Part shown: piece after piece, positions 2,895-57,399 of the stretch
Numbering within the stretch: the stretch's first letter is position 1
Layout of the letters: every line of letters starts with the position of its first letter
Assembly (NCBI GenBank): GCA_918797485.1
Contig: CAKKNE010000002.1
Coordinates: forward strand, 5,952,001 to 6,016,000
Direction: 5' to 3'
Length of the DNA stretch: 64,000 nucleotides
Origin: Pelagomonas calceolata
Lineage: Eukaryota
Translations under genes and position numbers: made by a program
Notes under the pieces: generated by a model
Told to the model about the DNA's origin: nothing
Database searches by the model: none
Seen by the model: the letters and a program-made list of their open reading frames with translations, nothing else

Positions 2895-3083
2895 GGGGCG
2901 CGGCTTCCAGAGGCCCGCACTTGTGGGCTAGCGGCCTGTAAGACACTAGCAAGCCATGAGCTGGCGATGAGTCAGTTCGGCAATGAGCCAGTTTGAGGAG
3001 ATCCCGTCCCCGGGACGCGGCTTCCAGGGCTCCCGCGTTAGGAAATCCCGCGTGGGCTAGCGGCCTGTAAGACACTAGCAAGC
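2895..3083 (+). repeat. Two tandem copies of the intergenic element ending in GCTAGCGGCCTGTAAGACACTAG (motifs 2927-2949 and 3056-3078)
   Basis: 2961-3083 is a near reverse complement of ~19694-19816. The upstream partial copy shares cgcggcttccag and the motif. Confidence 0.9.
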
Positions 3084-3198
3084 ATGAGCTCTCGGCAAGT
3101 CTCGCAGGACATAGAGGCTTGTGTCAGGACCACTGCTCATGCGCGACTAGGTTTTGGGGACGCTGCAGGCTACTGGCACAACTGCGCAGCGCCGCAGC

Positions 3199-6100
3199 AT
3201 GGGCAAGAAAACAGCGCGCGGACGCGGCCACCAGGGCGGCCGCAAGCCACCGAAGGGCGCGCGCCGGTTCAAGGGCGGCCGCGTCGCGCCGCGCGCCGAG
3301 CAGCTGCACTTCCCCGACGACGTGCAGGCCGTCGTCTGCGAACTCCTGTGCGATCTGCGCCTGCCGACGACGACGGACATGCTGGCGCGACGGAAGCTGG
3401 AGAAGTATAAGAAGGAGCCGCGCAAGGTCCTCAAAGCGCTCGAGGCGCGGCGCCGCGGCGCGTGTCAGGAGGCATTCGGCGTCGCGCCGCCAACGCCGCC
3501 GCCGGTAAGGAAGGAGGGCCGCGTGCGGCTCAATTTGGCGGCGGAGACCGTGAACTGCAAGAGCGGCAAGCGCTCGCGCGGCGCGGCGCGGTTGCTGGTC
3601 GTCGACCGCGCCGACGACGTGACAAAACTTTTGGCCAAGGCCAAGACGCTCCTGAAGACGAAGAGGGCGCCGCGCGTCGCGTACGTCGCGGACACGGGTC
3701 TGGAGCTGCGCGACACGCGCGGCGTCGAGGACGGGACCCTCGTCTGCGTCTCCGACGACGCGCCGGCCCCGGAGCCCCCGAAGGCTCCGGAGCAGGCCCT
3801 CGAGCTCGGCTCGCCGGCGGCCTGGGACGGCCTCGCGTTGACGGCGACGACGCCGCGCGAGGGGGCCGTCGCTCCGTCGCGCGAGGAGGCCGTCGCTCCG
3901 CCGCGCGAGGAGGCCGTCGCTCCGTTGCCGTCGCCGGCGGAAAACCGCGGCGCGGCGCCCGTGCGGATCGACGCCGGCAGGAAGGCGGCCATGGACGCGA
4001 TCCGCGAGCGCCTGCCGGCGCACGCGTTCCGCGCCCGGATCCTCGACGCCGTCCGCGCGAACCGCGTCGTCGTCGTCGCCGGCGCGACGGGCTGCGGCAA
4101 GTCGACGCAGATCCCGCAGTTTCTGCTGGAGGATGCCGCGGCGCGCGTCGTCGTCACGCAGCCGCGGCGCGTCGCCGCCGTGTCGCTGGCGGAGCGCGTC
4201 CACGGCGAACGCGCCGAGCGGGTGGCGCTGGGCGAGGGCTCCGTGGGCTATAGCGTTCGCTTGGACGTGCGGCGGTCCGCGGCGACGCGGCTGGAGTTCG
4301 TGACGGTGGGCGTGTTGTTGAGGCGGCTCCAGCGGCCCGACGGCCTGGCCGACGTGACGCACGTCGTCGTCGACGAGGCCCACGAGCGGGACGTGCTGAC
4401 GGACTTTTTGCTGGTGGCCCTCAAGACGAAGACGCTGCCCACGACGAGCGTGAAGCTCCTGGTCATGTCCGCGACGCTGGACGCGGGCCTCTTCGCGTCG
4501 TACTTCGGCGGCGCCGCGGCGGTGGAAATCCCGGGCCGGCTGCACCCCGTCCAGCACCGCTTCGCCGACGCCTGCGCGCGGCGCGTCGCCGAGGCGGCGA
4601 CGGGCTCGCGGCGCGCGCGGGACGCCTGGCGGCGCCTCGGCGCCGCGAGGCTCCCGGCCGCGGGCGACGACGGCCTCACGCCGCTCGTCGACGGGCCGCT
4701 GGACGTCGACGCCGTCGCGGCGCTCGTCGCGGCCATCCACGAGACCGACGCCGACGCGTCGAACGCCATTCTATGTTTCGTGCCCGGCGCGGCCGAGGTC
4801 GACAAGCTGTGCCGGGCCGTGGCGCGCGACCTGCGGCGTGCGACGGTCGTGCCCTTGCACGGGTCTCTGCCGCCGCGGGACCAGCGGCGCGCGTTCCAGC
4901 GGCCGCCGAAGGACTCGCGGAAGGTCGTCGTCAGCACGAACGTCGCCGAGACGTCCATCACCATCGACGACGTCGTGCACGTCGTGGACACGGGCCGAGC
5001 GAGAGAAATTCGGTACAACGCGGCGTCGGGCGTCGCGTCGCTGAGCGAGGTGCGCGTGGCCCGGGCGGCGACGACGCAGCGGGCGGGCCGGGCGGGGAGG
5101 GTGAAGCCGGGCACGTGCTGGCACGCGTACCCCGAGGCCGACCTGGGCGTGCTGCCGGCGCACGCAGCGCCGGAGATGCTCCGGACGCCGCTGCAGGACC
5201 TCGTGCTGCAGGTCCTGAAGCTGGGGCTCGGCGGGCCGCGGCAATTTCTTGGGGCGGCGCCCCAGCCCCCGCCGACGCGAGCGGTCGACGCGGCCCTCGA
5301 CGACCTGCTGGCCATCGGGTGCGTCGCGCGCGTAGGCGGCGAGGAGGTTGCCGACGACGACGACGAGTCGTCGAGCGACGACGACGAGAACCCGCACGGC
5401 GACGACGGCGAGCTCTTCTCGTTCAGCAGCGCCATGCTCGCGGAGAGTAGCCACGACGAGGAAGACGACGAGGAGGACGCGCCGATCGAGGACGACCGGT
5501 GGCTCCTCACGCCGCTGGGCGAGCACGTCGCGTCGCTGCCGGTGGACTGCCGCGTCGGCAAGCTGCTGATCTACGGCTGCGTGTTCGGCTGCGCGGACGC
5601 CTGCCTGACGGCCGCGGCGGGCATGTCGCTCGCGCGGGGCCTGTGGCGCGCGCCGCCGCAACTACGAAGGGAGGCGTCGCTCGCCAAGAAGCGGCTCGCC
5701 CAGGGCGACGGCTCGGACCTGCTGGCCGCGGTGCGCGCGCACGAGGCGGCGTCCGCGCTGGACGCCGAGGCGCGGCGGCGGTTTTGTCGAGACCACTTCG
5801 TGGACGAGCGGGCTCTCCAAGAGCTGGGCGGGCTGCGGCGCCAGTTCCGGTCTCATCTCGTGGACGCGGGGCTCCTCGACGCGGACGCTCCGCGACGGCC
5901 GCTGGCGGACGCGCTCGCGCTCGTGAGGGGCTTGTTGGTGGCCGGCCTCAACCCCCACGTCGCGCGCAAGGACCGCGAGGCCCCGGACGCGTCGCTGCGG
6001 TGCAAGGGCAACCAGCGCTGGTGGGTCCACCCGCAGTCCGTCAACTTCGAACTCCTGGGCGGGCGGGGCGACGCGCGGAAGCCGCGGTACGTCGTCTACA

Positions 6101-6399
6101 ACGCCCGGCTGAAGACGTCGAAGCCCTACCTCCTGGACACGTCGCTCGCGTCGCCGGCGGCGCTCTGCCTCTTCGGTGGGTCGTTGCGACGGACGCTCAA
6201 GGGGACGTACCTCGTCCTCGACGGCTGGCTGCCCTTCAAGGCGACGGACCACGCGCAGCTTGCTTTATTGGCGCTGCGGCGCGAGGTCGACGCGCTCGTG
6301 CTCGCGACCGTGGCGGGGCACGCGTCGCGCGCGAGCCTCGCGCCGACGGCGAAGGCCGTCAGGGACGTGCTGGCGCTGCTGGCGTCCGCCGACATGTGA
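3199..6399 (+). CDS. DEAH-box RNA helicase (DHX57/DHX36/DHX29 subgroup)
   Basis: Motifs GATGCGKST, TQPRRVAA, DEAHER, MSAT, TNVAETSITI, QRAGRAGR, then HA2-like (LTPLGEHVASLPVD) and OB-like (VHPQSVN) segments. First ATG at 3199. Confidence 0.95.
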   Translation: MGKKTARGRGHQGGRKPPKGARRFKGGRVAPRAEQLHFPDDVQAVVCELLCDLRLPTTTDMLARRKLEKYKKEPRKVLKALEARRRGACQEAFGVAPPTPPPVRKEGRVRLNLAAETVNCKSGKRSRGAARLLVVDRADDVTKLLAKAKTLLKTKRAPRVAYVADTGLELRDTRGVEDGTLVCVSDDAPAPEPPKAPEQALELGSPAAWDGLALTATTPREGAVAPSREEAVAPPREEAVAPLPSPAENRGAAPVRIDAGRKAAMDAIRERLPAHAFRARILDAVRANRVVVVAGATGCGKSTQIPQFLLEDAAARVVVTQPRRVAAVSLAERVHGERAERVALGEGSVGYSVRLDVRRSAATRLEFVTVGVLLRRLQRPDGLADVTHVVVDEAHERDVLTDFLLVALKTKTLPTTSVKLLVMSATLDAGLFASYFGGAAAVEIPGRLHPVQHRFADACARRVAEAATGSRRARDAWRRLGAARLPAAGDDGLTPLVDGPLDVDAVAALVAAIHETDADASNAILCFVPGAAEVDKLCRAVARDLRRATVVPLHGSLPPRDQRRAFQRPPKDSRKVVVSTNVAETSITIDDVVHVVDTGRAREIRYNAASGVASLSEVRVARAATTQRAGRAGRVKPGTCWHAYPEADLGVLPAHAAPEMLRTPLQDLVLQVLKLGLGGPRQFLGAAPQPPPTRAVDAALDDLLAIGCVARVGGEEVADDDDESSSDDDENPHGDDGELFSFSSAMLAESSHDEEDDEEDAPIEDDRWLLTPLGEHVASLPVDCRVGKLLIYGCVFGCADACLTAAAGMSLARGLWRAPPQLRREASLAKKRLAQGDGSDLLAAVRAHEAASALDAEARRRFCRDHFVDERALQELGGLRRQFRSHLVDAGLLDADAPRRPLADALALVRGLLVAGLNPHVARKDREAPDASLRCKGNQRWWVHPQSVNFELLGGRGDARKPRYVVYNARLKTSKPYLLDTSLASPAALCLFGGSLRRTLKGTYLVLDGWLPFKATDHAQLALLALRREVDALVLATVAGHASRASLAPTAKAVRDVLALLASADM

Positions 6400-7679
6400 G
6401 TCATAGGTCTTGTTTTTGTCCGTTTTTTGTTTTATAGGTGCTAGGACGGCGATCTCCCTGAGAGACAACTACTGGGGCTCCAAGCCAGGTCCGACACCCG
6501 GGGGGGTCTGTCGAACGACCCGACGAGATTCAGACTCGTCCAGCGGGCCGTCGGACCGAAGGGGAGGTTTTGACTTCTCGCATAGGTATGGCTCCTAGTA
6601 GTAGGGGTACTAGTACCCCCCGCGTTTACCGAAGTAAGGTGTCCATTGTTTGTCCGCAGGAGGTCTCTGTTTCCGGAGGCTTCTGACCGCTCCAAACTCC
6701 GGGGATGTGCACTTAACGAGTAGTAGACATCGGTGCGTGGAAGCTCCGCGGCGCCGCCGGCTAATTCCTAGATCTGCACTTGTCCGCGAACGAAAGCGCC
6801 ATGCAGTCGTATGAGTATCGTTCGGTTCGATACTGGTCCAAAGAGATCAATGGGACACTTACTGGGGGGCGAAAAAAATAATTTTTTTAATTCGCGATAT
6901 TGACGGTCCCACCATGACGGCCGCGTCGATGGAATCCTGTACACCGACTTTTGGCTCCGCGAATTCACTAACGCGGCCGACGAGATAAAGAATTCTTCCC
7001 GATCGAGGCGAAACTCGGCCGACGCGCGCGAAGAGGCGGCCGGGCTAGGCGGTGGTCTGTGGCCCGGGGCCGGTGCTGTGTGAGACCTCTCACGGCGCGA
7101 TGGGGCGCTCTTAGCCCTGGGGCGGTCGCCGGTCGGGCCGGGTCGGCGCTACATAATGGATAATTCGCAGGAACTCGGGGGATTGATCCAGCTCGGAGAG
7201 ATACGTCGAAAACCGGTCTCAAACTAGACCGACTACGAACCGACTACATAGGCCTCTCTGGCCTTGATCGTGCGTAGTACCCCGGGGTCACGACCAGACG
7301 ACGCTCGTATCTAGCACTCGTCCCTGGAAGTCCCGAGCCTACCCCCGCGTAATCTCATGACTTCGAACAAACTACACTAAGAAAAGTAGCCCCAGCGGCC
7401 CCCCGCCAAAAAACGACGTAAACAGACCGAAACATTAGCAAGCGCGGCGAAGATAGGTTTTGTCGAGAAGCCGATCGCTAAGACCGCTCCGGGCACCTCC
7501 GGGAGGCATATGTTCTGCCGCGGGGCGCGCCTCAACGCAGGATCAGCGCCTCCCAATTGCGCAAAGCGTCCAAAAACGCTGCCCACAGGCCTCGCGATGG
7601 GTTTGGCAGGAGCGTTGCTATCAAGACGACGGCCAGAGATGCCATAACGCCCCGCGGCGCCAGACAAGCAGCGGCGGCC

Positions 7680-10256
7680 ATGGACTCCACCGAGACGACA
7701 CCGCGGCTCCAGCGGCGCCAGAGCTCCATTGATTTGTTGGCGCGGAGCCAGCGGCGCAGCGCGCGGCCGCCGTCGCGCCTTCGGCGCTGGATGCGAAGGC
7801 TCGCAAGCCTCCGGCGGCTCCGGAGCAAGGACGCGGTCGAGGCGCACGTCAACCTGCGGATGGACCAGGACGCGCGCTGGACCGTGAAGGAGTACCTCCT
7901 GGGGCACGTCGTCGGCCAGTTCGTCATGCTCTTCGTCATCGCCGTGGGCCTGGTCTGGGCGGGCACGCTCGCCTGGATCGCGGCGTGCACGTATCTGACG
8001 CCGCGGCGGCGCGCGAAGACCCCCGACTACAACACCAGCGTGATCCAGGCCCTCTGGTTCTCCTGGGGCGTCTTCTTCGACCCGGGGACGCAGACCGGCA
8101 TCGTGGCGGACGAGTACGTCGCGGTCAAGGTCGTGGCCGTCGCGTTTTCGGTCGTGGGGTTTTTGTTTAACCTCGTGCTCCTGGGGTTGATCGTGGAGCG
8201 GGTCAAGATCTTTCTGGACCGCATGGTCGAGACGTACGGGAAGATCGTGTGCACGAAGCACATTCTGGTGCTGGGCTGGACGGACCGGACGCTGTTTTTG
8301 TTGGGAGAACTGGCGGAAATGGCCCAGGGCAACGCCGCCCAGAAACGGACGACGATCGTCGTCCTGGGCGACCTGTCCCCGGCGGAGCAGCGCGCGGAGA
8401 TCCGGCAGGCCTTTCCGTCGTGGCGGGCGGCGTTTCCCGCGGTCGACGTCGTCTGCCGGCAGGGGAGGGCCTACGAGGTCGAGGACCTCGCCCGGGTCTC
8501 GGCCCAGGCGGCGGACACGCTCGTCATCCTGGGCGCGTCGCGCATCCCGAGGGACGCCGACGCGCAGACCATATCGACCGTGCTGGCCCTGAGGGCGCTC
8601 CCGTCGGCGCCCAAGTCCAAGTTGATCGCCGAGTTCCGCCTGTCGCAGTCGACGCACGTCTTCGATCGCGTCGGCGGCGACCGGAAATTAGTACCCATCC
8701 TCGCGGCGACGGTCGTCGACGCCGCGTTGGTGCGATGCGCGCTCGTCCCGCCCGTGGGCGCCGTGGCGCTGGACCTGTTGTCGTTCGAGGGCCAAAACAT
8801 AGAAATGATCCGCGCCGACAGGGCGGGCTGCGGCGGGCGGACCTTCGAGGACGTCAGGCGGCATTTTCGGACGGCCGTGGTCCTGGGCCTGGCGAGCAAG
8901 GAGAAGAAGAGCGTCGTGCTGGCGCCGCCCGACGACCGCCTCGTCGTGGACGACGACCTCGTCGTGTGCATCGCCGAGGACCAGACGGCGCTCTCCGACA
9001 TTAGCGAGCGCGCGACGCCGAGGGTGACGCCCCAGGACGTGCTGCGGCGGGCGGCGGGGCTCACGGGCCGCCGCCGGCTGGAGACGATCCCCGTGGACGT
9101 GCCGCGCGTCGACGTGGCGCTGGTCGGGTGGAACGACCGGGTCGTGCCGCTGCTCCGGGAGCTCGACCGGCACGTCGCGTCCGGCTCGGTCGTGCACGTC
9201 CTGTCCGAGAGGAGGTTGGACGAGCGGGAGCGCTCGCTGAAGGAGGAGGGGCTGACGCTGAAGGGCGAGTCGGTCTTCCGGGAGGACGACATCGGGCTGC
9301 GGAACGTGACCCTCGACCACGTCGTCGGCTTCGCGACGGACGTCTCTCAGCTCCGGCGGCTGCCGCTCGCGACCCTCGAGGCGGCCATCGTCATGGCCGA
9401 CATTGATCAGAACGCGGTGCAGTCGACGTCCGGCGCGGAGCTGCAGCTGGCCGACTCGGAGACGATCACCTCGACGCTGCTGCTGAGAGATATGCACGAA
9501 CGCTGTCGAGCCAAGGGCAAGGCGGAGTCGCCGCTGGTCATCGTGCCCCAGTTCCTGGACGTGCTGACCACGCGCGTGTTCAAGAGGCATCCCGGTTTGT
9601 TGGAGGAGGAGAGCGACGCCAACGCGATGGTCGGCGAGGACTCGTCCGACGACGACGCCGCGGCGCCCGGGTCGGCCTTTGGTGTGGGGCGGACGCTGTG
9701 CGTGCACCGGAACTTCCTGGAGACCGCGGCGCTGACGTCCTCGGCCTTGTCGATCTACGGCGCGATGGCGCTGCGCGCGCTACTAGGATTGGACGAAGCC
9801 CTGGGTCGACGCGCCGTCGGGCCGCCCCGGCTGCGCGTCGTGCGCTGCGACGCGTGCCTCGAACGGCCGTCGATCCGCCCCCGAGCCTTCGACGACCTCA
9901 ACGACGCCGTGCGACGGAAGTACGGCGCGTTAATGGTCGGGTGCTGTGTGGAAATCAAACCCGTGTGTCGGGTGCTCCGGCATCGCCAGCAGGCGTCGCG
10001 TCGATGGCGTGGAGGACGACGCGACGATTCAGCACGAACGCGCCGTAAAATTTTGATTTCCACACAGGTCGGGTGGTGCCGGCGGAACCGCGAGTCCCAC
10101 GGGCCGGACTACGGCGACCCGGAAGTGAACCCGCCCCGGGGCCGCGCGCTGGCCTGGCGCGGCGACGACCTGCTCGTCGTCGTCACGTCGAGCGGCATCA
10201 TGAAGTCCATCGTCGAGGCGGCGGCGCGCGGCGACGTAGCGGTCAGCGACCTTTAA
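7680..10256 (+). CDS. CASTOR/POLLUX(DMI1)-like cation channel with RCK domains; one intron 9936-10067; ~814 aa
   Basis: TM - pore (ALWFSWGVFFDPGTQ) - TM, then RCK signature HILVLGWTD and a second RCK (VALVGWND). The 132-bp in-frame introner is read through by the raw ORF. Confidence 0.85.
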   Translation: MDSTETTPRLQRRQSSIDLLARSQRRSARPPSRLRRWMRRLASLRRLRSKDAVEAHVNLRMDQDARWTVKEYLLGHVVGQFVMLFVIAVGLVWAGTLAWIAACTYLTPRRRAKTPDYNTSVIQALWFSWGVFFDPGTQTGIVADEYVAVKVVAVAFSVVGFLFNLVLLGLIVERVKIFLDRMVETYGKIVCTKHILVLGWTDRTLFLLGELAEMAQGNAAQKRTTIVVLGDLSPAEQRAEIRQAFPSWRAAFPAVDVVCRQGRAYEVEDLARVSAQAADTLVILGASRIPRDADAQTISTVLALRALPSAPKSKLIAEFRLSQSTHVFDRVGGDRKLVPILAATVVDAALVRCALVPPVGAVALDLLSFEGQNIEMIRADRAGCGGRTFEDVRRHFRTAVVLGLASKEKKSVVLAPPDDRLVVDDDLVVCIAEDQTALSDISERATPRVTPQDVLRRAAGLTGRRRLETIPVDVPRVDVALVGWNDRVVPLLRELDRHVASGSVVHVLSERRLDERERSLKEEGLTLKGESVFREDDIGLRNVTLDHVVGFATDVSQLRRLPLATLEAAIVMADIDQNAVQSTSGAELQLADSETITSTLLLRDMHERCRAKGKAESPLVIVPQFLDVLTTRVFKRHPGLLEEESDANAMVGEDSSDDDAAAPGSAFGVGRTLCVHRNFLETAALTSSALSIYGAMALRALLGLDEALGRRAVGPPRLRVVRCDACLERPSIRPRAFDDLNDAVRRKYGALMVGCCVEIKPVCRVLRHRQQASRRWRGGRRDDSARTRRKILISTQVGWCRRNRESHGPDYGDPEVNPPRGRALAWRGDDLLVVVTSSGIMKSIVEAAARGDVAVSDL
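9936..10067 (+). mobile_element. Introner intron 1 (132 bp, GT-AG)
   Basis: TSD gtcgggtg at 9936-9943 and 10068-10075. TIRs ctgtgtggaaatcaa (9944) ... ttgatttccacacag (10067). Confidence 0.95.
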
Positions 10257-12236: not shown

Positions 12237-13481
12237 ATGCGAGCTGTACTGCTGTTCGTCGTCAGTGGCGCAGCCCTGCACTCAAATCACCAGAGCGCAC
12301 CACTGCTGCCGCAACCGGACCGCCGCCTCTTCATCCGAGCGCTAGCGTCGACCGCGGCGTCGGTGCCGGCAGTCGCGAGCGCCGAGCGCACGGGCCTCCT
12401 GGACGTCGACGCGACGGGCCTCTCGTTGGGGCGGGCCTTCGAGCTCTCGCTGCCGAAGCCGGAGCTGCCAAGGGCGAACCGGGCGCCGCTCGACCAGAAA
12501 TTCGCCGTGTGCATGATGCGGAGTAGTTACAACACCGTCGACGAGCTCGACTTCTGCGCCATGGACGCGTTCCAGAAGCGGTTCTTCCTCATTCGCCAGG
12601 ACGAGTGGCAGCCGTACCTCGCGCGGGCCCGCGCGGCGCTGGGCCGGCCGCCCGAGCAGGGCGACCTCACGGACCCGCTCTACTTCGACTTCATCTCGTT
12701 CGCCCAGTACGAGACGATCAACGACTTCCTGAAGAGGCCCCGGAAGCTGTTCGAGGAGCTCGTGAGCGCCGAGGGCGAGACGCGCGTCGTCGCGCGGAAC
12801 GCGTCGTCCGTCGCGGATGATCGACTCCTCGCCGCGGAGCACGGGCGGCGAGTGGGCGACAAGGTGCTCGATTTCGTCCTCGAGCGGTTCGCGTCGACGT
12901 CGTACACGCAAGTCCAGGTCTCGCCCCGTGTGGAAATCAGCCAGTGAGTTAGGTTGACGTCGACGGCGCGGGACGCCCGAAATTTGATTTCCACACAGGT
13001 CTCGCCGGAGCTCTCGCCCGTCGCCGTCGAGGCGAACGCCCAGAAATTAGTCACGCTGCTCGCGGTGCTCGGCTTTAGCATCGACAGCGTTGCGGAGCGG
13101 CGCGGGAACAAGTTGCTGGTCACCTTTATTGGGGCGGCGAACTGCTGGGGCCTGCGGAGCCTGAGCCAGGGCAACCCGCTGGCGCGGCCGCCGCTCGTGA
13201 ACGACTTCGGCGCCAAGGTCGTCGGATGTGTGAAAATCAAAATTTTACGGCACGTTCGGCGTGGCGGTTCCTCACCGCTCGACGGGGCCAGCACGGCAGC
13301 GCCATCGCCGAGAAATGACTTCGTGAAGAATTATCGGGTGCACCCTACGCACTGGTCGATTTCCACACAGGTCGTCGGCGCGTGGCTCGCGCGGTGCGGC
13401 TACGCCGGGAGCCGCGAACCCGCGGCGACTACGTTCGACGCGGCGAGGTGCGCGTACACGCACGAGTTCCGGCTCGCGTGA
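12237..13481 (+). CDS. Probable plastid/thylakoid protein of unknown function; introns 12918-12998 and 13218-13370; ~336 aa
   Basis: Signal peptide plus RR-hydrophobic-ASA (Tat-like) leader; block QGDLTDPLYFDFISFAQY. Removing the two introners joins ORFs 12237 and 12954 in frame. Confidence 0.75.
12918..12998 (+). mobile_element. Introner intron 2 (81 bp, GT-AG, short derivative)
   Basis: TSD gtctcgcc at 12918-12925 and 12999-13006. TIRs ccgtgtggaaatca ... tgatttccacacag. Contains in-frame stops. Confidence 0.95.
13218..13370 (+). mobile_element. Introner intron 3 (153 bp, GT-AG, element reversed)
   Basis: TSD gtcgtcgg at 13218-13225 and 13371-13378. Ends atgtgtgaaaatcaa ... tcgatttccacacag. 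Confidence 0.95.
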
Positions 13482-13493
13482 GTAATTATCAAT

Positions 13494-14039: not shown

Positions 14040-14272
14040 AACGTCACGGACGGTCACGGAGAGACGTGGCATGCTGCGAAGCCCGTATCCCCATTTTCCG
14101 ATGGGAGTCATGTATTCAGGGGAAACACCGATTCTACTACGGAAGTGGTCAACCGTTTAGCAGAGCCTGAACAGCGCGCTATGTTTAATTTCCAACCAAG
14201 GAGTACAAATATTATTCTTCACCGTGCATGTGCGTCGAGGTTTACTCCTCGGCAGAGACAGCAGCGGTTTTG

Positions 14273-14342
14273 GGGCGCGGCTTCCAGGGCTCCCGCGTGC
14301 GTGAGGAAATCCCGCGTGGGCTAGCGGCCTGTAAGACACTAG
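14273..14342 (+). repeat. Partial intergenic element with terminal motif (14320-14342)
   Basis: gggcgcggcttccagggctcccgcg...ggaaatcccgcgtgggctagcggcctgtaagacactag matches 3016-3078. Confidence 0.9.
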
Positions 14343-14451
14343 GCATCCCTAGGGCCTAGCAAAAGCAAGCAAGCGCCGCGCGCGAGCTAGACAACAGTGC
14401 TATGCAAATCGTCTAGGCTGTCGACGCGAGAACTCACGCCACACACGAGCG

Positions 14452-15858: not shown

Positions 15859-15885
15859 TACAGTATTTATTTATTTAGTTTTATT

Positions 15886-16930: not shown

Positions 16931-16953
16931 CTAGTGTCTTACAGGCCGCTAGC
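16931..16953 (-). promoter_or_regulatory. Intergenic 23-bp motif in a divergent promoter region
   Basis: ctagtgtcttacaggccgctagc is the exact reverse complement of the consensus; 95 bp before ATG 16836. Regulatory role is inferred. Confidence 0.7.
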
Positions 16954-18582: not shown

Positions 18583-19607
18583 CTATCGCCGCGACGTGGC
18601 GCTGCTCGAAGGGTGGCCGTCCCAGCGCGTCCCCGGCGGCGCTGGCGTGGGCGGCGCGCCCGCCAAGCCTGCGACGTGTAGCGCCAGGGCGCTCCAGTCC
18701 AAATGCGAAATATTCGGGTCCATCGCCGCGATTTCGAAACTGGCCGCCAGATGCGCCCCCAGCGGCATCGCCGTGCGAGTCGCGGCGGCGGCGTCGCGGA
18801 TCAGGCGCGCGTCCTTGAGGCCGTTTGCCATGCTGAACCCTCCTTCCGAATGGTCTCGGCGGGCGATCCTATCACCGTACCCTCGGTAGATGGCGCAGTC
18901 GAAGATCGTCGAAGTCAGCATGCGCAGCACCTGCTGCCGGTCGAGGCCGTGGCCTGTGCGCGAATCGACGTTCACGGCGCTTCCTCCACGCCATCGGCGC
19001 AAATTGCACTCACGGGTTGATTTCCACGCCGAACTTGGCCCTCCGCGAGGTCCAGACCCTCGGCCAGCGCCTCGATCGCCCCCGCGATCATGAAGTTTCC
19101 CGTCAGCTTCGCGGCCGCGGCGGCGCCAGCGGAATCCCCAAAGTCGAAGCAGCGCTCTGCGGGGGCCGCGTGGGACAGCGCCTCGTCGATCGCGCGTTGA
19201 CGCAGCGCGGCGTCGCCGCCCGAGAGGGCGAAGGAGGCCTGGCCCGCGCGCATGTTCTCCGGCCGGGCGAAGACCGGGGCGGCCACGAAGCCGACGCCTG
19301 CTTCCTGATGTTTCCTCTCGAGGTCTGTCGCGCAGACGGGCGACAGCGTCGAGACCGAGACATGCAAAAGCCCGGGCTTGGCCGCGGACAGGAGCTCGTC
19401 GGCGACCGCGGTCGCGGCGGCGTCGTCCGGGACGCAGCTCACCACAGTCGTCGACCGCGCGACGACGTCGGCGACGGACGCCACAGTCACGGCGTTTTCG
19501 AGCGTCTTCGCAGCATGTCGATCAAAGACAACCAACGATGCCTTCGAGAGCTGCTCGCCCAGCGCGCGCCCCAGGTTGCCGAGGCCTACGAGGCCCAGCT
19601 TTGCCAT
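18583..19607 (-). CDS. Beta-hydroxyacid dehydrogenase (3-hydroxyisobutyrate/6PGD NAD-binding family); intron 18954-19039; ~312 aa
   Basis: GLVGLGNLG Rossmann motif, VAAPVFARP, AKLTGNFM, GLKDARL. The 86-bp intron restores the frame (LAEG|HGLDR). Confidence 0.92.
18954..19039 (-). mobile_element. Degenerate introner intron 5 (86 bp, GC-AG)
   Basis: TIR remnants ctgtgcgcgaatcga / gttgatttccacgccg; TSD decayed (gccgtggc vs aacttggc). Length mod 3 matches the ORF frameshift. Confidence 0.8.
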
Positions 19608-19693: not shown

Positions 19694-19816
19694 GCTTGCT
19701 AGTGTCTTACAGGCCGCTAGCGCGCGGGATTTCCTAAACGCGGGAGCCCTGGAAGCCGCGCCCCGGGGACGGGATCTCCTCGAACTGGCTCATTGCCGAA
19801 CTGACTCATCACCTGC
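19694..19816 (-). repeat. ~125-bp intergenic element with terminal motif (19699-19721) and (CAAG)n tail
   Basis: Near reverse complement of 2961-3083; motif lies 92 bp before ATG 19607. Confidence 0.92.
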
Positions 19817-20179
19817 CCGACCGACCAAAACTTCCAATTGGGAAGTCGGCCGCGGGACCCCCGTCCTTTTGGGCACTTGCTTCGCATGGGAGCGGGCGGG
19901 ACGCGCGGCGAAGTTGCCGCATGTAAGAGACATCGCCAAGCCTTGTCCTCGTCCTCTCGTTACCGCTTAAGTACTCTCTCTCTCTCTCTCTCGTTACTCG
20001 CGCCGTCCCCCTTATGGCCGCGTCTTATACTATATGAGTGGGGCGACGCAGTGGCCCAACCTCCGTTTGTCTCCCCCCCAAGGTCCCTGCCCACTATTTC
20101 TAGCACCGTTAGAAAGGTTTCTAAAAAATTCTAGACACGATCTCATTACACGACGGGGGATGAGGGGAGGGGGGAGGGC

Positions 20180-21560
20180 TCACGCGTGCAACGCGAGCAC
20201 CTGTGAAGCGGCGACGCCCTGGAGCGGCGTGCCGTCGGCGAGCTTCACGTCGCACGTGCCCGCGTCGCCGTCGACCGCGACGACCTCGCCCGGCCGGAGC
20301 GCGCCCTCATGCGCCACGTCGACGGGCACACCCGGCGCGAGCGGCGCCTGCGTCTGGTTCGGCTTGCGCAGGCGGCGCCGCGCAACGTTTGAAGCCGTCA
20401 CGACGTCGCCCGCGACGTCGTAGGTCGGCCCCGGCGCGCGCACGCGCGTCACCGCGACGCCGATCCAGGCGAGGCCGCTCCGCGCGCAGAGGCAGAGCTC
20501 GACCTCCTCGCCCACGTTCAGGTCGCCGAGCGGCGCCGGGGGCGCCTCGTCCTCGAGCACCGCGGCGCCGGCCTCCGCGCACGCCTTGGCCGTGGCCGCG
20601 GCGGCGATCGCGGCCGCCGCGGCCGCGTCGCCGTTCGCCGCGGCGAGCGCCTGCTCGACGATGCCCAGCAACCGCTTCGGCTTGGCCGGCTTGGCCTCGA
20701 AGAGGTCCATGCCGATGCCTGTGTGGAAATCAACCAGTGCGTCGGGTGCGTTTCTCGGCGACGACGCGGCCGTCCTGGCTCGGTCGAGCGGTGAGGAATT
20801 CACACCGCCACGCCGTCGAGCAGGCGTCGCGTCGATGGCGTGGAGGACGACGCGATGATTCAGCACGAACGCGCCGTAAATTTTGATTTCCACACGGGCC
20901 AATGCCCAGGCCCAGCTCCCGCTCGTCCGGTTGGGCGTGGCTCGTCAGCGCGCAGATGAACTGCTTCTGCTCCCGCTCGACGCGCGCCTCCCACCGCCGG
21001 ATGGCCTGGGCGCACCGGTACCCGTTCATGACCGGCATCTCGATGTCCAGGAAGACGAAGTCGTACAGCCGCGTCTGCATCTGCGCGAAGGCCTGCCAGC
21101 CGTTCTGGGCCACGTCCACCACGTACCCCTTCCGCTCGAAGGTCCGCTGCAGGTAGCGGCGCACGGTGTACGAGTCGTCCGCGACCAGCATGCGGCCCGC
21201 GCGGCCCGCCGGCAGTTGTTGTAGTGTCTCGCCCGACGCCGCCGCGAGCGTGCGCATGCGCACGACCGGCGCCAGGGGCGATGTCAATGATAGGCCGTCG
21301 GCCGTCGCGCCGGACGTGTCGTCGCCGCTCGACGCGCCGCCCCGGCTCGCGTCGTCGCTGCCCCCCGAGGAGGAGTTTTCTTCGGTCTTGTGGCGCTTCG
21401 GGGGGTTCTCCGGCGCCGGCTCGTCGGTGGGGCGCTTCTTGTCGGCGTCCCGCGTCTCCGCGTCCGGGGGCGGCCGGCCGTGCGCCGGCGCGAGCGCCGC
21501 GAGGCGGTCGTAGACGGCCGCGAGGGTCTCGCCCGTGGTGAGGGGGGCGGGCTGGGCCAT
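20180..21560 (-). CDS. Response-regulator receiver protein with C-terminal Tudor-like segments; intron 20719-20905; ~397 aa
   Basis: LVADDS, FVFLDIEMPVMNGY (phospho-Asp), ALTSH and, after splicing, GMDLFEAKP. Confidence 0.9.
20719..20905 (-). mobile_element. Introner intron 6 (187 bp, GC-AG)
   Basis: TSD gccgatgc 20711-20718 vs gccaatgc 20898-20905. TIRs ctgtgtggaaatcaa ... ttgatttccacacgg. Confidence 0.95.
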
Positions 21561-23496: not shown

Positions 23497-23545
23497 GCTA
23501 GGCCTGGTAAGACACTAGCAGTCTAGTGTCTTACAGGCCGCTAGC
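23497..23545. promoter_or_regulatory. Inverted pair of the intergenic motif between divergent genes
   Basis: gtaagacactag (23507-23518) cagt ctagtgtcttac (23523-23534). Confidence 0.75.
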
Positions 23546-38763: not shown

Positions 38764-38784
38764 CTAGTGTCTTACGCCGCTAGC
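38764..38784 (-). promoter_or_regulatory. Intergenic motif variant
   Basis: ctagtgtcttacgccgctagc, 160 bp before ATG 38604. Confidence 0.7.
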
Positions 38785-49846: not shown

Positions 49847-49867
49847 TTAGTGTATTACACCGCTAGC
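49847..49867 (-). promoter_or_regulatory. Degenerate intergenic motif
   Basis: ttagtgtattacaccgctagc, followed on the minus strand by caagcagc. Confidence 0.55.
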
Positions 49868-49903
49868 CCAGGAGACTCCCTGCGTCCCCATTCTCTGGGA
49901 AAG

Positions 49904-50089: not shown

Positions 50090-50170
50090 CGTGCGCACGC
50101 GGCCAGATACTACAAGCGCGCGCTCCTGGATGGTGGGTTGGATGCTGTGTCGAAAATTGGAAATGCGTGG

Positions 50171-50193
50171 GCTAGCGGCCAGTAAGACACTAG
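50171..50193 (+). promoter_or_regulatory. Intergenic motif
   Basis: gctagcggccagtaagacactag, 188 bp before ATG 50381. Confidence 0.7.
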
Positions 50194-50380
50194 ACAGCGG
50201 TGGGGGAATACTGTACAGAGCACGGCTCCGCGGGACAGAGTACCGTGTGACGCTTCGCAGCAGCTCAGACGTGCTAAAAACGCGTGCCAGCCGGAGCGGT
50301 CGCAAAGCCTAACGCCAGCAGATTGCCAGCCGACCGAGCGCTGCTCACGCGCACGAAAACAACAACAAACGCGCGTAACG

Positions 50381-51373: not shown

Positions 51374-51395
51374 CCATGTATACCAGTAAAACAAT

Positions 51396-53992
51396 TTAGA
51401 CCATATCTCCGTCGGAGTCGCTGCTGTCGTCCGCGATGGCGAAGCCGCCCGCGGACGGCGTCGTCGCGACCTTGGCGTACTTGGGTTTGCGGTTGCGGCG
51501 CCGTCCGGGCAGCTCGAGGGACGGCGGCGCGGGCTTCGGGAAGAGCCAGCCCAGGAAGAAGCAGTCGTCGTCGTCGTCGGGCGCGTCCACGGGGCACGAC
51601 GCCTCGAGCCCCCGCACGTCCCGGCCGGCCCGGTCCACCTGTGTGGAATTCAACCAGTGCGTCGGGTGCACCCGACAATTCTTCACGAAGTCATTTCTCG
51701 GCGACGACGCGGCCGAGAACGCGCCGTAAATTTGATTTCCACACAGCGGTCGACGGCCGACGCTACCACCACTCCGCCGGTCGGCGGCGCGTCGAAGACG
51801 CAGGTCGCCTTCCGGGCGTCGCGGCCGTCGGCCAGGCCCGTCCGGCGCTCCGCGAGGGGCGACGCGTGCGCGTCGACGTAGAGCCGCACGACGACGCCCG
51901 CCGCCGCGGCGTCGGCGCACGACACGGAGCAGACCACGATCGACCGCCCGCGCGCGCAGCACCGCGCGAGGAGCGACGGCGCCCGCGTCCGCGTCAGCGA
52001 CGCGTCGACGGTCAGCCGCGCGTCGAGCTCGTCCACGGGGTCGCGCGCCGGCGCCGGCTGCGTGATCTCGTCGGCGAAGGCGTCCAGGCACTCGAGCAGC
52101 CGCGCGCGCGACGCCCGGCGGTCGGACGACTCCCCGGCCGGCGGCGGCGGCGCCTCCTCCGGCTCCGAGGGCGCCTCCGCGGCCCGCTCGGCTTCCCGCG
52201 CGGCCCGCGCCTTGTCGTCGAAGGCCCGCCGGAGGTCGGCGACGGCGTCCGCCGAGACCTCGTCGTTCGGCAGCTCCACGACCTCGACCGAGTCGCGCAC
52301 GCCGCCGACGCTCTCCGCGACCCAGACCTCGCCGCCCACGTCCTCGAAGGCCACCCACATCTCGCCCTTGGGGCCCAACCGCCGCCGCGTGCCCACGAAG
52401 TAGTCGCCCCGCCCCAGCGGCAGGGCGGCGCCGTCGACGGCGCCCCGCGGCGCGTCGCGCGGCACGACCGCCGCCTCCCGGACGCGGTACACGACGCGCC
52501 GCTCCTCCTCGCCCCGGATGGGTTTCAGGATCGCCTCGCCGTCACGCGCGCCGCGGCAGATGGCCCAGCGCTCCGCGGACCGCCGCGACCGGCGCCTCTT
52601 GGGCGTCTCGTCGCCGACGATCTTCGAGAGCTTGGACTCCAGCGTGTCGTCCTCGCCGTCGCTGGCGTCCTCGTCGCCGTCGGACGTGACGTGCGCCCAG
52701 ACCTGGCCCGACGGCGTCAGCACGACGCTCTCCGCGACGAGCACCGAGCCCAGCGGCGCGCGCGCGACGGCCTCGACGCGCCGCCGCGCGACGGGCTCCT
52801 CCTTCTTCTCCTGCAGCGTCTCGATCTGTCGCCGGGCGTTCTCGGCGGCGGCCTTCGTGGCGTCGGCGGCCTGCTTCGAGGCCCTGGCCAGCCGCTCGCC
52901 GAAGAGGTTCGCCTTCTCGCCGAGCAGCTTCGCGTTGGGCGACTTGTCCATGGCCGCCTTCATCCAGGGGAAGTTCGTGGTCGCGGCCGCGGCGGCCGGC
53001 GCGGGCGCGGGCGCCGCCGGCGCGGGCGCGGGCGCGGGCGCCCTGGGCGGCGGCGACGCCTTCTCCTGGAGCGCCGCGCGGAAGCCGCCGCCGGGCGCCG
53101 CCCGCAGCGGCAGCGCCCCGCGCGAGTACACGTTGCGGAACCACTGCTCCCGCTCGAACAGCGGCGCGGGCACGGGCTCGAGGACGTGGGCGCCCGTGTT
53201 CGCGTTCGTCGCGATGCACCACCCGTCCACGATCCAGGGCTCGTAGTCGTCGTCGCCCCGCCGGATCTCCAGCGACGCGCAGATGCGCACCCACAGGAGC
53301 CCGCGCGCCCGGTCGTCGTCGTCGTCGTCGCGCGGCGCGAGGCGGACTTCCGCCGCCCGGAAGCAGACCCAGGGCGGCACGGCCGCCGCGCGGGGCGCGT
53401 CGAGCCGCGGCGCCGTCCTCGCCGGCAGCTCCCCGGCGTAGTGCCGCGCGTAGCAGTTGCAGAAGTAGCCCGTCATCTCGACGGCCTCGAGCGCCAGCGT
53501 CGCGTCGTTCTCGCCCTCGGTCGCCGCCCGCTCGGACACGCAGACGAAGCGCTCGCCGTCGACCAGCCGCGCCCAGAGCTCGTTCGTCTGCGCGTCCCGG
53601 ATCAGCTCGGGCGCGCACCGCACGCACTCGTGGCGCCGGACCTCGCCCCGGAAGGCGGCCGTGCGGCGGGGCCCGGCGAAGAGCTGGACGGCGCGCGTCG
53701 GCGCGCGGAAGAAGCGCTCGCCCCCGGACGCCCGCGGGACCCGCGCGACGCGGCCGTCGACCTCGAGCCACGCCGGGCCGTCGAGCGTCGCCGCCGGCCC
53801 GGTGTAGCCCGCGCCGGTCTCGAGCCAGAGCCGCCGCCCGACGACGGCGTGGCGCGCCGCGGCGACGCAGCGGCCGGGCATGAGGCGCTCGACGCGGTCC
53901 TCGGCGCCCGCGCCGGGGTAGGGCGCGAGGTCGATCGGCGTGCTCGACGCGTTGACGTGGAAGTCGCCATCCGCGTCCCCCATGCTGGTCAT
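51396..53992 (-). CDS. Hypothetical protein; intron 51639-51754; ~826 aa
   Basis: Long ORF; introner removal (116 bp) joins it to the frame ending at 51396 (ASA|VDRAGRDV). Confidence 0.75.
51639..51754 (-). mobile_element. Introner intron 10 (116 bp, GT-AG, internally deleted)
   Basis: TSD cggtccac 51631-51638 vs cggtcgac 51747-51754; TIRs ctgtgtggaattcaa/ttgatttccacacag. Confidence 0.95.
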
Positions 53993-54393
53993 CGCGCTTG
54001 TGGTGAAACCGCAGGAGAGCGCCTGGGCTGCCGTTGCCTACGAAACTTTGCAGCGTCGGTAGTGGTAGCTTCGAAGCGTTGCCGAAGCGTTGCTTATACG
54101 CCAATTAAGCGATCTGGCGTAGTTTTGCCGCACTCGCAGCAAAAAGCTTGATGAATTAGCTAGCTCTAGATGCTCTAGCATGAATGCGCGCCGCGCGCTG
54201 GCCTTTGCTTTGTGATATAGGGGACCCACAGTCACGGTGCGAAGGCAACGTCTGAGACCCAATTCGTCAGCGCAGCCAACTAGCGCCCCAGAGGCTGGGA
54301 GGCCAAATCTCCAGAGGGGGGCTCTGGGACTAATCTCCGTCGCGGCGGGGACCAATTACTCTCAACCTCGCGCCGTCGGCGACCATAGTCATC

Positions 54394-55434: not shown

Positions 55435-55507
55435 TTCTTCGACCGGCGCTGTCTTTATCTCTCCTCGTCGTGGTGTCCGGTCGACTAGTTATTGTGTAAA
55501 AGACTTA

Positions 55508-56221
55508 CTACCTCTCGACAAGAACGAACTGCTCGCCGACCTTCGGCGAGATTTCCTTGTTCAGCACGATAAGCGCCGAGTTGATCGCCTTGCGTCCCCG
55601 TTCCCAGGCCGCCGCCGCTTGAGCCTTATCCGCTGCTTTTGCGACGTCGCCGATATCGAGCGCACACTCGTTGACGTACCACCTCGTCAAGAACAAGACG
55701 TTGCCCGGGCCGTTGTTCTCGCTCGCCATGAGGCCGTTCGCCAGGAGGCCCATGGCCCTGAGATTGTACTTGGTATCGTCCGAGGCGACCGACGCCCATG
55801 ATCCGTTGTCAACGGCACCCTTCAGCGCTCGGAAGGCCTCGACACCGGCGAGGACCCGGGCAGCATATTTCCCGTAGGCCTCGTAGCGCTGCTGTACGCG
55901 CGTGAACGGGACCGCGCCTCCGTCCGGGATCTCGCTGGTGGCGTCTTGTAGAAATGGTGGCGACCGTCCATATTTAAAGTAAAAATCTTGCGAAAACAAC
56001 ACGTTGGAGTTCATGGGGTCGCGGCTCAGCGACGCGTCCGGGTTCGACGCCATGTTTTTCGTCTCGACGAACATGCCCGGGCCGACTCCATCTGCACTGG
56101 CAACCTGGGGCGCGAGCGATGTTATCGCCGCAGCGGCGCCGGTGCACCAGCCTCTCCTTGTGACTGCTGGCTTGAGGGCTGCAGCCGTCAGCGCCGCTGT
56201 GCAGAGGAAAGTGCGTCGCAT
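55508..56221 (-). CDS. Probable thylakoid-lumen protein (helical, possibly PsbQ-like)
   Basis: Signal peptide plus TRRGW...VASA Tat-like leader; helical C-terminus. Confidence 0.6.
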   Translation of the reverse strand: MRRTFLCTAALTAAALKPAVTRRGWCTGAAAAITSLAPQVASADGVGPGMFVETKNMASNPDASLSRDPMNSNVLFSQDFYFKYGRSPPFLQDATSEIPDGGAVPFTRVQQRYEAYGKYAARVLAGVEAFRALKGAVDNGSWASVASDDTKYNLRAMGLLANGLMASENNGPGNVLFLTRWYVNECALDIGDVAKAADKAQAAAAWERGRKAINSALIVLNKEISPKVGEQFVLVER

Positions 56222-56391
56222 CGTAGAGGGTGTGAGTGAGGCTGTGAGAGCTGACGACTGTGCTCGCGCTAGTTGCAGATTAGATGCACGAGTTCAAATA
56301 TGACAAATGCTGGTCCGAGATGCAATCTGAAGCGCGTAACGAGTGGAGACGCGGCCGCGCCGCCCAGACTGGCTGTGCCTGCCAGGCATCC

Positions 56392-56440
56392 CTAGTGTCT
56401 TACCTGTCTAAGAACGATTTCCTAAGCGCGGGAGCCCTGG
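56392..56440 (-). repeat. Degenerate copy of the intergenic element
   Basis: ctagtgtcttac...gatttcctaagcgcgggagccctgg matches 19699-19752; 171 bp before ATG 56221. Confidence 0.8.
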
Positions 56441-56501
56441 GACGGCTTGCTTGGTGACATTACGCAACCCGCACGCTCTTGGCAAACACAACCACACATT
56501 T

Positions 56502-57164
56502 TTAATCTTCCTCCCCCTCGCTATCGAAAACCCCAAGCTGCTCGAGGATCTTGTCGTCGACGCCGTACGCGTTGTCGTACGTCGCGGTCAGCGAGAGCAG
56601 GAAAAATAGCGCCTCGTGCCTCGCGAGCGACAGGCCGAGCGCGCGTCCGAGGTGCCGGTGGAACTTCCGATGGAGGAAGAGCGACGACGACTCCGACTCC
56701 TCGGTGAGGACGTCCAACTGGAGCAACCGCGTCGACGCGAGCTCCACGGACCACCGGACCTCTCCGCCGGACGCCTCGTAGACGAGGCGCAGCCGGCCGC
56801 CCGAGGGCTTGAGCACCAGCACCGATTCGACGCGTTGGGATGCTCGGGCCAACACGCAGTCACGCGGCGCCTCGCAGCGGATGCGCCGCGCGAGAGCTCG
56901 AGCTAGACCCGGCGACAGCTCTCCGTACGGGTCGCGCGCAAGTATCGTCCGCAGCCGGACCGTGTCGGCGCGTCGCGATGCCTCGCGTGCGATCGCATCG
57001 AGCACCTCTTCCTCGAACGCGACGCCTTCATTAGTGTAACGCTCAGCAATGTCGCCGACGTCTCGCGCGAGCCGCAGCCTCCAAGGGATGTGCGCGCGGC
57101 GCCTCGCAAGCTTGCTTTGCAATGCGCGGCGCATCGCGCGGCGACGGCGTGCGCGCAGAGCCAT
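56502..57164 (-). CDS. Hypothetical protein
   Basis: Open frame with plausible composition; no recognised motif. Confidence 0.55.
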   Translation of the reverse strand: MALRARRRRAMRRALQSKLARRRAHIPWRLRLARDVGDIAERYTNEGVAFEEEVLDAIAREASRRADTVRLRTILARDPYGELSPGLARALARRIRCEAPRDCVLARASQRVESVLVLKPSGGRLRLVYEASGGEVRWSVELASTRLLQLDVLTEESESSSLFLHRKFHRHLGRALGLSLARHEALFFLLSLTATYDNAYGVDDKILEQLGVFDSEGEED

Positions 57165-57377
57165 TTTTGTATCGGGCTGGCAGCAAGCAGCAATGCTCAT
57201 GTACAGCAGTAGAATGCGATTAGTATGGCGAGGGCTGCTTGCCGAGCGCTCCGCGCTCAGCCAAGGAGGTGCTCTCTTGGCCCTCGGACTGCTCAGCTAG
57301 AGCTCGCGCAGCTTTCCAGCCGTCAACCGCCCTCCCGCGCCAGGCAGGCTATCCCGAGACGCCTCCGTCCCGTGAGC

Positions 57378-57399
57378 GCTAGCGGCCGTAAGACACTAG
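57378..57399 (+). promoter_or_regulatory. Intergenic motif
   Basis: gctagcggccgtaagacactag, 176 bp before ATG 57575. Confidence 0.7.

What the first reader, a model, noticed from the sequence alone, without database searches (positions are those of the whole stretch)
2927..57399. Oriented 23-bp motif GCTAGCGGCCTGTAAGACACTAG upstream of many genes
Seen: 12 copies (2927+, 3056+, 14320+, 16931-, 19699-, 23497+, 23523-, 38764-, 49847-, 50171+, 56392-, 57378+), all intergenic and none in the predicted coding sequence. Each points towards a downstream ATG, mostly 92-280 bp away (one degenerate copy ~510 bp). In divergent spacers either orientation points at a gene, but all five copies in tandem spacers (2927, 3056, 14320, 19699, 56392) are also co-oriented. 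The core GTAAGACACTAG is the best-conserved part, is bracketed by CTAG and contains a donor-like GTAAG. Inference: a lineage-specific core-promoter/TF site, a 5'-UTR splice signal, or the terminus of a promoter-targeting mobile element that has been exapted. I do not recognise it as a described element.
Basis: partly seen in the sequence, partly recalled or inferred. Interest (0 to 1): 0.8.

Follow-up and report, generated by a model that had tools for sequence, protein, structure and literature searches.

The report
Tiny mobile repeat in algal promoters
A 22-letter near-palindromic repeat sits between genes in 10 spacers of this window from the marine alga Pelagomonas, facing either way; it is the fixed end of a longer repeat that likely spread by copy-and-paste, and it may since have been kept as a promoter binding site.

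Summary
The motif is real: 12 of 12 listed copies were found, plus two missed ones, all between genes. The genome is Pelagomonas calceolata. The core is CTAG-14 nt-CTAG, a quasi-palindrome.

It is not strictly oriented. In metagenome loci, tandem spacers split 15 co- vs 12 anti-oriented, a missed window copy points away from LepA, and two pairs of homologous promoters carry it in opposite directions at the same CTAG. Splice-donor, spliced-leader and directional core-promoter readings therefore fail.

It is the fixed 3' end of a ~120-bp repeat. 15 of 124 copies keep 24-96 nt of graded 5' extension, many carry a CAAG tail, and RG precedes 71 of 111 copies (14.7 expected). The likeliest mechanism is retroposition into CTAG sites (~45%); the main rival is Replitron/REP-like HUH transposition (~25%). 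No partner enzyme was found.

The motif stays intact while homologous flanks fall to 67-80% identity (ascertainment-biased), hinting at selection or renewal. It was not found in print in my searches.

The parts
2862..2881 (+).
2894..2949 (+). Copy with about 45 nt of decayed 5' extension; exact motif at 2927-2949
2950..2960 (+). TSD-like stretch repeated (one indel) after the next copy at 3079-3090
   Evidence: seen by eye
2961..3078 (+). Longest form of the element (~118 nt): 96-nt 5' part plus exact motif at 3056-3078
14272..14342 (+). 5'-truncated copy (45-nt extension), exact motif 14320-14342; tandem spacer, co-oriented, 109 bp before MFS ATG
14343..14352 (+). Secondary GCATCC+CTAG unit after the 3' CTAG
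16931..16953 (-). Short exact copy in a divergent spacer (94 and 86 bp from the two ATGs)
19699..19816 (-). Long copy (94-nt extension), exact motif 19699-19721, CAAG tail; tandem spacer, co-oriented; protein-level hint of an empty allele in other haplotypes
23497..23545 (.). Tail-to-tail inverted pair (degenerate + copy, exact - copy, 4-nt spacer) forming a strong hairpin, z = -5.96
38764..38784 (-). Short copy with 2-nt deletion; divergent spacer
49847..49867 (-). Degenerate short copy; divergent spacer, 513 bp from both ATGs
50171..50193 (+). Copy of the T>A variant; divergent spacer
56392..56440 (-). Copy with 33-nt extension and altered left arm, followed by a GGATGC unit; tandem spacer, co-oriented
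57378..57399 (+). Short copy with 1-nt deletion; divergent spacer
59814..59835 (-). Degenerate copy with both CTAG arms intact in a tandem + spacer, pointing away from LepA (missed; counter-example to orientation)

Best explanation
The motif is the fixed 3' end of a ~120-bp dispersed repeat of Pelagomonas calceolata that lies between genes in either orientation and likely spread by target-primed reverse transcription, SINE-fashion, into RG-CTAG sites. Inferred steps: (1) a LINE-type endonuclease/RT nicks at a CTAG, which in this genome occurs almost only between genes; (2) the element RNA, ending in a small stem-loop and a short CAAG tail, primes cDNA synthesis; (3) in most events the cDNA would pair with the other target end as soon as it has copied the internal CTAG 18 nt upstream, leaving the uniform CTAG-14-CTAG unit; (4) less often synthesis runs on and leaves 24-96 nt more, sometimes with a 7-13-nt duplication; (5) resident copies supply fresh CTAGs, hence arrays, inverted pairs and the secondary 6-mer. 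Shown: the anatomy, the junction bias and the lack of strict orientation. Separately, about even odds that many copies are now held by selection as an orientation-independent promoter site rather than being renewed.
For: - Sharp 3' end, graded 5' extension: 15 of 124 copies extend 24-96 nt, always 5' and on the same strand; 0 of 356 control segments score as high.
- Tail: CAAG follows 36 of 113 copies, and 15 of 22 CAAGCAAG words lie within 30 bp 3' of a copy. In both opposite-orientation pairs the tail sits on the copy's own 3' side and is absent from the other allele.
- TSD-like repeats of 7-13 nt around four long copies: L117 and window 2927 exact; window 3056 and L040 inexact, by eye.
- RG directly 5' in 71 of 111 vs 14.7 expected.
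- Same target CTAG used in opposite orientation in L002/L040 and L031/L066.
- Suggestive empty allele at window 19699: P0032/P0033 read through the site without motif or tail peptides.
- A LINE-like RT gene is in the species annotation (Pca_5p03220) and 'helitron' is not (14,639 rows held).
Against: - No RT, Rep or transposase among 131 + 148 flanking ORFs; the one RNase H is stand-alone. No link between any RT and this 3' end was shown.
- About 88% of copies stopping at one nucleotide is unusual for retroposition.
- No general TSD beyond CTAG. All four TSD-like cases lie next to an older copy, so local duplication could mimic them.
- No Rfam family or Pol III-type head; the long form folds no better than shuffles.
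- Replitron-1 leaves the same RG and variable-TSD signature.
- No DNA-level empty/filled pair was found, and no RNA data were seen.
- Copies persist at homologous sites in diverged haplotypes, which plain neutral insertion does not predict.
Confidence: 0.45

Rival explanations
1. Single-strand HUH (Y1 Rep) transposition, Replitron- or REP-like. The two CTAGs would be nick sites at the foot of an imperfect hairpin; the 18-nt unit between them, or a longer piece, would be strand-transferred 3' of RG, with fuzzy 3' ends carried from parent copies.
For: Replitron-1 inserts 3' of RG, has short direct terminal repeats, fuzzy right ends and variable TSDs; here RG is in 71 of 111 and 3' ends of 9-12 nt are shared by unrelated loci. 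Replitron transcripts are listed for two Pelagophyceae. The motif is an imperfect palindrome (minus-strand RNA hairpin z = -2.0) and occurs in inverted pairs as bacterial REPs do. A 14-bp insert is easier for ssDNA chemistry than for a DDE synapse (inference).
Against: No Rep ORF in the flanks and no match of the motif in the Replitron supplements. The hairpin is weak as DNA (z +0.36/-0.39). Left ends of long copies are graded, not fixed. Replitron-1 and N1 share 52-53-bp ends, far longer than this unit.
Confidence: 0.25
2. A host cis-element first: a dimeric protein binds the two CTAG arms between genes, and the repeat is kept and spread by selection and gene conversion, with mobility incidental.
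For: Motif identical in 7 of 7 and 20/22 in 2 further homologous pairs whose flanks are 67-80% identical within 30 bp (unrelated baseline 52-56%). CTAG arms differ at 7 of 176 positions vs 28 of 242 inner positions (p = 0.007) and 33 of 66 at positions 9-11. Typical distance to ATG is 150-200 bp in both orientations. A quasi-palindromic site needs no orientation.
Against: Pairs were found through the motif, so conservation is inflated. Spacer length varies from 12 to 15 bp. It does not explain the one-sided 96-nt extension, the tail, the arrays or opposite orientation at one CTAG. No CG phasing on the motif. Hairpin self-repair or subfamily structure could also keep the arms.
Confidence: 0.13
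3. Excision footprint or internal-deletion remnant of a cut-and-paste DDE element that targets TA within CTAG.
For: Short copies have the form CTAG-x-CTAG. A 6-mer plus CTAG follows 16 of 131 copies in both orientations (9 and 7) and never the 5' CTAG, and is present/absent between 99%-identical alleles L003/L044. A Tc1-like DDE gene is annotated in the species.
Against: Long copies have only one end and no TA or CTAG at their 5' junction. No second end was found. The tail and RG asymmetry do not fit a symmetric integrase. This reading fits the 6-mer better than the motif.
Confidence: 0.09
4. Oriented signal: 5'-UTR splice donor, spliced-leader relic or directional core promoter.
For: Contains GTAAG; two copies have gained a CAG before it (window 56392, L009). 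Four window tandem spacers are co-oriented, and the Pfam-confirmed tandem subset leans co-oriented (11 vs 2; my tally).
Against: 15 vs 12 and 30 vs 25 overall; anti-oriented tandem cases confirmed by Pfam or by reading; inversion between homologous promoters; window copy 59814(-); some copies lie 5-14 bp after a stop codon.
Confidence: 0.03

Closest known systems
SINE / 5'-truncated non-LTR retroposon 3' ends with stem-loop and short tandem-repeat tail (L2/CR1/RTE-type; recalled knowledge, not from a call)
   Same: Fixed 3' end, graded 5' truncation, simple-repeat tail, occasional variable TSD, head-to-tail re-insertion.
   Different: About 88% of copies collapse to one 18-bp unit at an internal CTAG; no Pol III-type head or partner LINE found; copies persist at homologous promoters.
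Replitrons (PMC10288648)
   Same: RG 5' of the insertion, short direct repeats at both ends, shared sequence beyond the right repeat, variable TSD; group present in Pelagophyceae transcriptomes.
   Different: Far shorter than any described Replitron; left ends of long copies variable; no Rep found; motif absent from the paper's sequence files.
Bacterial REP/BIME (PMC8266576)
   Same: 20-50-nt imperfect palindrome, intergenic, high copy, either orientation, some inverted and tandem mosaics.
   Different: Eukaryotic; CTAG forms the stem itself rather than a GTAG tag 5' of it; inverted doublets are a minority; no TnpA_REP found.
Helitron HLE1 right end (PMC11417382)
   Same: Ends in CTAG; 5' side variable.
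   Different: Followed by T in only 2 of 131 copies; no 5' TC; no helitron entry in the annotation rows searched.
Pelagophyte Introner elements (PMC9481584, PMC9860276)
   Same: Small, high-copy mobile repeats in the same genome; several lie in this window.
   Different: Introners are ~200-bp elements with inverted ends inside genes; this repeat is intergenic and one-ended, and self-BLAST showed no shared sequence.

Membership tests
Non-LTR retroposon / SINE | Fixed 3' end with graded 5' truncation | tested here: met
   15 of 124 copies extend 24-96 nt 5' only; 0 of 356 controls
Non-LTR retroposon / SINE | 3' poly(A) or simple-repeat tail | tested here: met
   CAAG after 36 of 113 copies; 15 of 22 CAAGCAAG words adjacent; many copies have none
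Non-LTR retroposon / SINE | Variable-length target-site duplication | tested here: inconclusive
   4 long copies (2 exact; 2 inexact by eye); no general signal
Non-LTR retroposon / SINE | tRNA/5S/7SL-derived Pol III head | tested here: not met
   No Rfam hit near threshold; the longest copies may themselves be truncated
Non-LTR retroposon / SINE | Partner RT element sharing the 3' end | not testable with these tools
   No whole genome; none in 279 flanking ORFs; LINE-like RT listed for the species
Replitron | Insertion 3' of RG (Replitron-1) | tested here: met
   71 of 111 vs 14.7 expected; the G may partly be element-derived
Replitron | Short direct repeats at both termini | tested here: inconclusive
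   True for short copies (CTAG/CTAG); long copies have graded left ends
Replitron | Y1 Rep transposase in an autonomous partner | not testable with these tools
   Not in flanks; no genome-wide search possible
Helitron HLE1 | 3' CTRR followed by host T (A|T insertion) | tested here: not met
   T follows 2 of 131 copies
Helitron HLE1 | 5' TC terminus | tested here: not met
   5' junctions listed
REP/BIME | Short imperfect extragenic palindrome at high copy | tested here: met
REP/BIME | GTAG tag 5' of the hairpin and a linked TnpA_REP | tested here: not met
   No such tag in the profile; no HUH ORF in flanks
MITE / DDE transposon | Two inverted ends and a fixed TSD on all copies | tested here: not met
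   Long copies are one-ended
Spliced leader / 5'-UTR splice donor | Always sense to the downstream gene | tested here: not met
Spliced leader / 5'-UTR splice donor | Splice junction or leader seen in RNA | not tested
   No RNA reads were examined

The most novel reading that the evidence does not exclude
A eukaryotic counterpart of bacterial REP elements: an 18-bp minimal mobile unit, cut and joined at its own CTAG arms by single-strand chemistry, that has colonised thousands of promoters of one of the ocean's most abundant algae, is re-inserted and inverted at the same sites, and has become an orientation-free organiser of those promoters.
Probability: 0.2. Interest if true: 0.85.

Novelty: new variant of a known kind. 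Interest (0 to 1): 0.58.

Why it matters
The window has 14 copies in 64 kb. If that is typical, the 32-Mb genome holds roughly 7,000, near a large share of its 16,667 genes (extrapolation; genome figures). At 22 bp the repeat is too short for usual repeat annotation, and the species is reported as repeat-poor with mostly unclassified repeats. If selection holds the motif, it is a ready-made test of how a mobile element seeds a genome-wide regulatory site in a compact genome, and a first handle on promoter grammar in pelagophytes. If it is renewed instead, it is an unusually small mobile unit with a built-in truncation point.

Tried and rejected
- No whole genome was held, and five metagenome records could not be searched as genomes, so copy number is extrapolated.
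- No sequencing-read evidence was obtained, so expression, splicing and start sites are untested.
- Viral contigs: 0 matches for three patterns. Prokaryote genomes: 2 matches. L121 is an algal fragment at the start of a CTAG-poor contig. L122 has unrelated context and no 5' CTAG, so probably chance.
- A first 4th-order coding model overfitted and was replaced by a codon HMM (strand right in 40 of 40 leave-one-out tests on window genes).
- The RNase H ORF upstream of L062 looked like a retroelement end but is a stand-alone 233-codon frame with no RT.
- TSD tests in three designs were null except in arrays; two hits (L016, L061) were indexing artefacts. One of 18 settings was nominally high (8 vs 2.7) and was not taken as signal.
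- An abundant host target CTAGCAAG was rejected: 10 such sites away from masked copies, most next to a copy.
- Rfam gave only E = 6.6 (sR28) and unrelated miRNA-like hairpins.
- CG periodicity phased on the motif: none (p = 0.56).
- A divergence peak at the motif edges is only slight, so a 'break hotspot' is not claimed.
- The extension count had a contaminated null and was redone.
- N-terminal extensions of cluster proteins were informative at only one site; the others checked were not.
- A link to CTAG methylation by the Aureococcus giant virus was considered and left as coincidence: that paper found no cognate endonuclease.
- Earlier-findings look-ups were empty.
Full report
1. Observation. 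The 23-mer matches 7 times with up to 3 mismatches (0 in 100 shuffles) and its 12-nt core 13 times (1.05 expected). All 12 listed copies exist. An alignment scan adds a degenerate copy at 59814-59835(-) (1 hit in two shuffled windows at that score), and the core hit at 2870 marks another at 2862-2881(+), giving 14 copies in 10 spacers. Window genes were set from ORFs, Pfam and exact protein look-ups. Named members of two clusters are Pelagomonas calceolata proteins, one in a window-ORF cluster and one identical to a locus ORF. No whole genome was available.

2. More copies. The unit is CTAG, 14 nt, CTAG. RG precedes 71 of 111 copies against 14.7 expected, and CAAG follows 36 of 113. None of the 120 lies inside a called coding segment. 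CTAG itself is almost absent from genes (4 in 48,334 bp vs 77 in 15,666 bp), so target availability alone could give the intergenic location. Viral contigs had no match. The two prokaryote-genome matches are an algal fragment on a mixed contig and a probable chance hit.

3. Orientation. I dropped 9 homologous duplicates, leaving 111 loci. Of the 27 with a confident gene end within 300 bp, 15 are co- and 12 anti-oriented (p = 0.70; one of the 12, L010, is convergent). Gene starts within 300 bp lie downstream in 30 and upstream in 25 cases (p = 0.59), mostly 100-220 bp away either way. Against this, Pfam-confirmed ends lean co-oriented, 11 to 2 (my tally). I therefore printed 17 anti or doubtful loci in six frames (output cut, so L115 and part of L005 were not seen). 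Most read as real C-termini on the opposite strand; L032 and L069 did not. L004 is anti-oriented with Pfam hits on both sides. A modest bias cannot be excluded; strict orientation is refuted. Two pairs of homologous promoters, L002/L040 and L031/L066, have the inner segment in opposite directions at the same CTAG. In the window, tandem spacers are 4 co- and 1 anti-oriented.

4. The longer element. Self-BLAST and alignments show a shared 5' extension. It is present in 15 of 124 copies, reaching 24-96 nt, always 5' and on the same strand; none of 356 control segments scores as high. Three copies start within 2 nt of each other, so ~118 nt may be a natural unit. No second end was found. Copies form head-to-tail arrays (window 2862-3078, L117, L040) and inverted pairs (window 23497-23545, hairpin z = -5.96; L117; L082). 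Repeats of 7-13 nt flank four long copies, all next to an older copy; there is no general TSD. A 6-mer plus CTAG follows the 3' CTAG in 16 of 131 copies, in both orientations, never the 5' CTAG, and differs between 99%-identical alleles L003 and L044. The motif is an imperfect palindrome: modest as minus-strand RNA (z = -2.0), weak as DNA. Rfam shows nothing significant.

5. Polymorphism and conservation. No DNA-level empty allele turned up, but all loci were chosen for having the motif. L013 matches the window at 99.3% up to a CTAG near 6445 and then diverges, with a copy where the window has none; homology at that exact point could not be shown. Two proteins from other haplotypes of the gene at 18972-19607 extend 29-31 codons upstream without motif or tail peptides, and one shares the two residues at the element's 5' junction: a suggestive, not proven, empty site. 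In nine homologous pairs the flanks within 30 bp average 67-80% identity (unrelated 52-56%), while the motif is identical in seven and 20/22 in two. The seven were both found by exact match, so this is inflated. Still, near-identical haplotypes are common (identical proteins on 121-212 contigs), yet diverged pairs outnumber near-identical ones, which neutral decay would not predict (inference). In 22 degenerate copies the CTAG arms differ at 7 of 176 positions, inner positions at 28 of 242 (p = 0.007) and positions 9-11 at 33 of 66. Selection, renewal, subfamilies or hairpin self-repair could each do this. CG density shows no phasing on the motif.

6. Mechanism. No mobility enzyme was found in 131 nearest ORFs or in 148 of 276 further ORFs (lowest GC first). 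The species annotation (14,639 of 16,667 rows held) lists a LINE-like RT and a Tc1-like transposase and has no 'helitron' entry. One fixed end, graded truncation, a tail that travels with the copy and occasional variable duplications point to target-primed reverse transcription, with microhomology at the internal CTAG as the inferred reason for the uniform short form (about 45%). Replitron-1 shows RG targeting, short direct repeats, fuzzy right ends and variable TSDs, and the group occurs in Pelagophyceae, so HUH chemistry is the main rival (about 25%). Helitron HLE1 fails on the following base (T in 2 of 131). The overall look recalls bacterial REPs without their GTAG tag. The comparison with L2/CR1/RTE tails is recalled knowledge.

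7. Literature. Searches. The core sequence occurs in one paper, on yeast diphthamide (listing only). 'Pelagomonas' with 'promoter motif' gave none. Seen: PMC9481584, passages plus term searches of supplements 1-4 (file 4 cut, file 5 unreadable); bioRxiv 2024.10.30.620910, passages only, and its repeat table in the supplements, not seen, may list this family; PMC9860276, PMC12700378, PMC11417382 and PMC8266576, passages; PMC10288648, passages, one part of the text, Dataset S1 and term searches. The library lacks most subscription papers, and repeat databases were not searchable.

8. Verdict. A real, apparently undescribed, very short mobile-element end at high density between genes, facing either way. 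It is not a splice or directional promoter signal. Its survival at homologous promoters leaves about even odds of co-option. Interest 0.58; new variant of a known kind.

Noticed in passing
window 9944-10071, 13227-13381, 20695-20899, 31669-31876, 34452-35005, 51636-51760: Introner-like ~200-bp repeats with inverted ends inside genes, including an inverted pair at 34479-34977.
   Followed up: no
window 6445-7410 vs L013 1836-2535: Haplotypes 99.3% identical through the helicase gene diverge abruptly at a CTAG; only a 127-bp island at 87% is shared, and L013 carries a start-less coding-like fragment before its motif copy.
   Followed up: partly
window 2961-2991: The 5' end of the long form has a stem, 3-nt bulge and tandem GA/GA arrangement resembling a kink-turn or C/D-box motif; by eye only, with an Rfam sR28 match at E = 6.6.
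   Followed up: no
L010 about 2320-2370: A TTAGGG-like telomeric run lies just 5' of the long form.
   Followed up: no
L010 2154-2212, L030 1-75, L048; L066/L078/L087; L060 and window about 19940-19980: At least three other small intergenic repeat families lie near motif copies. One contains another CTAG-14-CTAG with a different middle beside a long palindrome.
   Followed up: partly
L003/L044 and 16 of 131 copies: The GCATCC/GGATGC 6-mer plus CTAG occurs only at the motif's 3' CTAG, in both orientations, and differs between alleles in three homologous pairs; possibly the footprint of a second element.
   Followed up: partly
L041 2556-3107: Only the C-terminal part of a class III aminotransferase follows the motif; no N-terminal part was seen.
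   Followed up: no
L121 / G001:C13 about 2000-4000: An algal fragment homologous to L107 sits near the start of a 77-kb contig in a prokaryote genome bin; all but one CTAG of the contig lie in it, so the contig is probably chimeric.
   Followed up: yes
L022 3-896 and 1228-2487: Low-GC locus with a DUF285 repeat protein and a weak CoiA_N hit, possibly laterally acquired genes.
   Followed up: no
window 54159-54177 and 6594-6612: Other CTAG-bounded short stretches in spacers without the motif; CTAG pairs at spacings 0, 2 and 5 recur in the loci.
   Followed up: no
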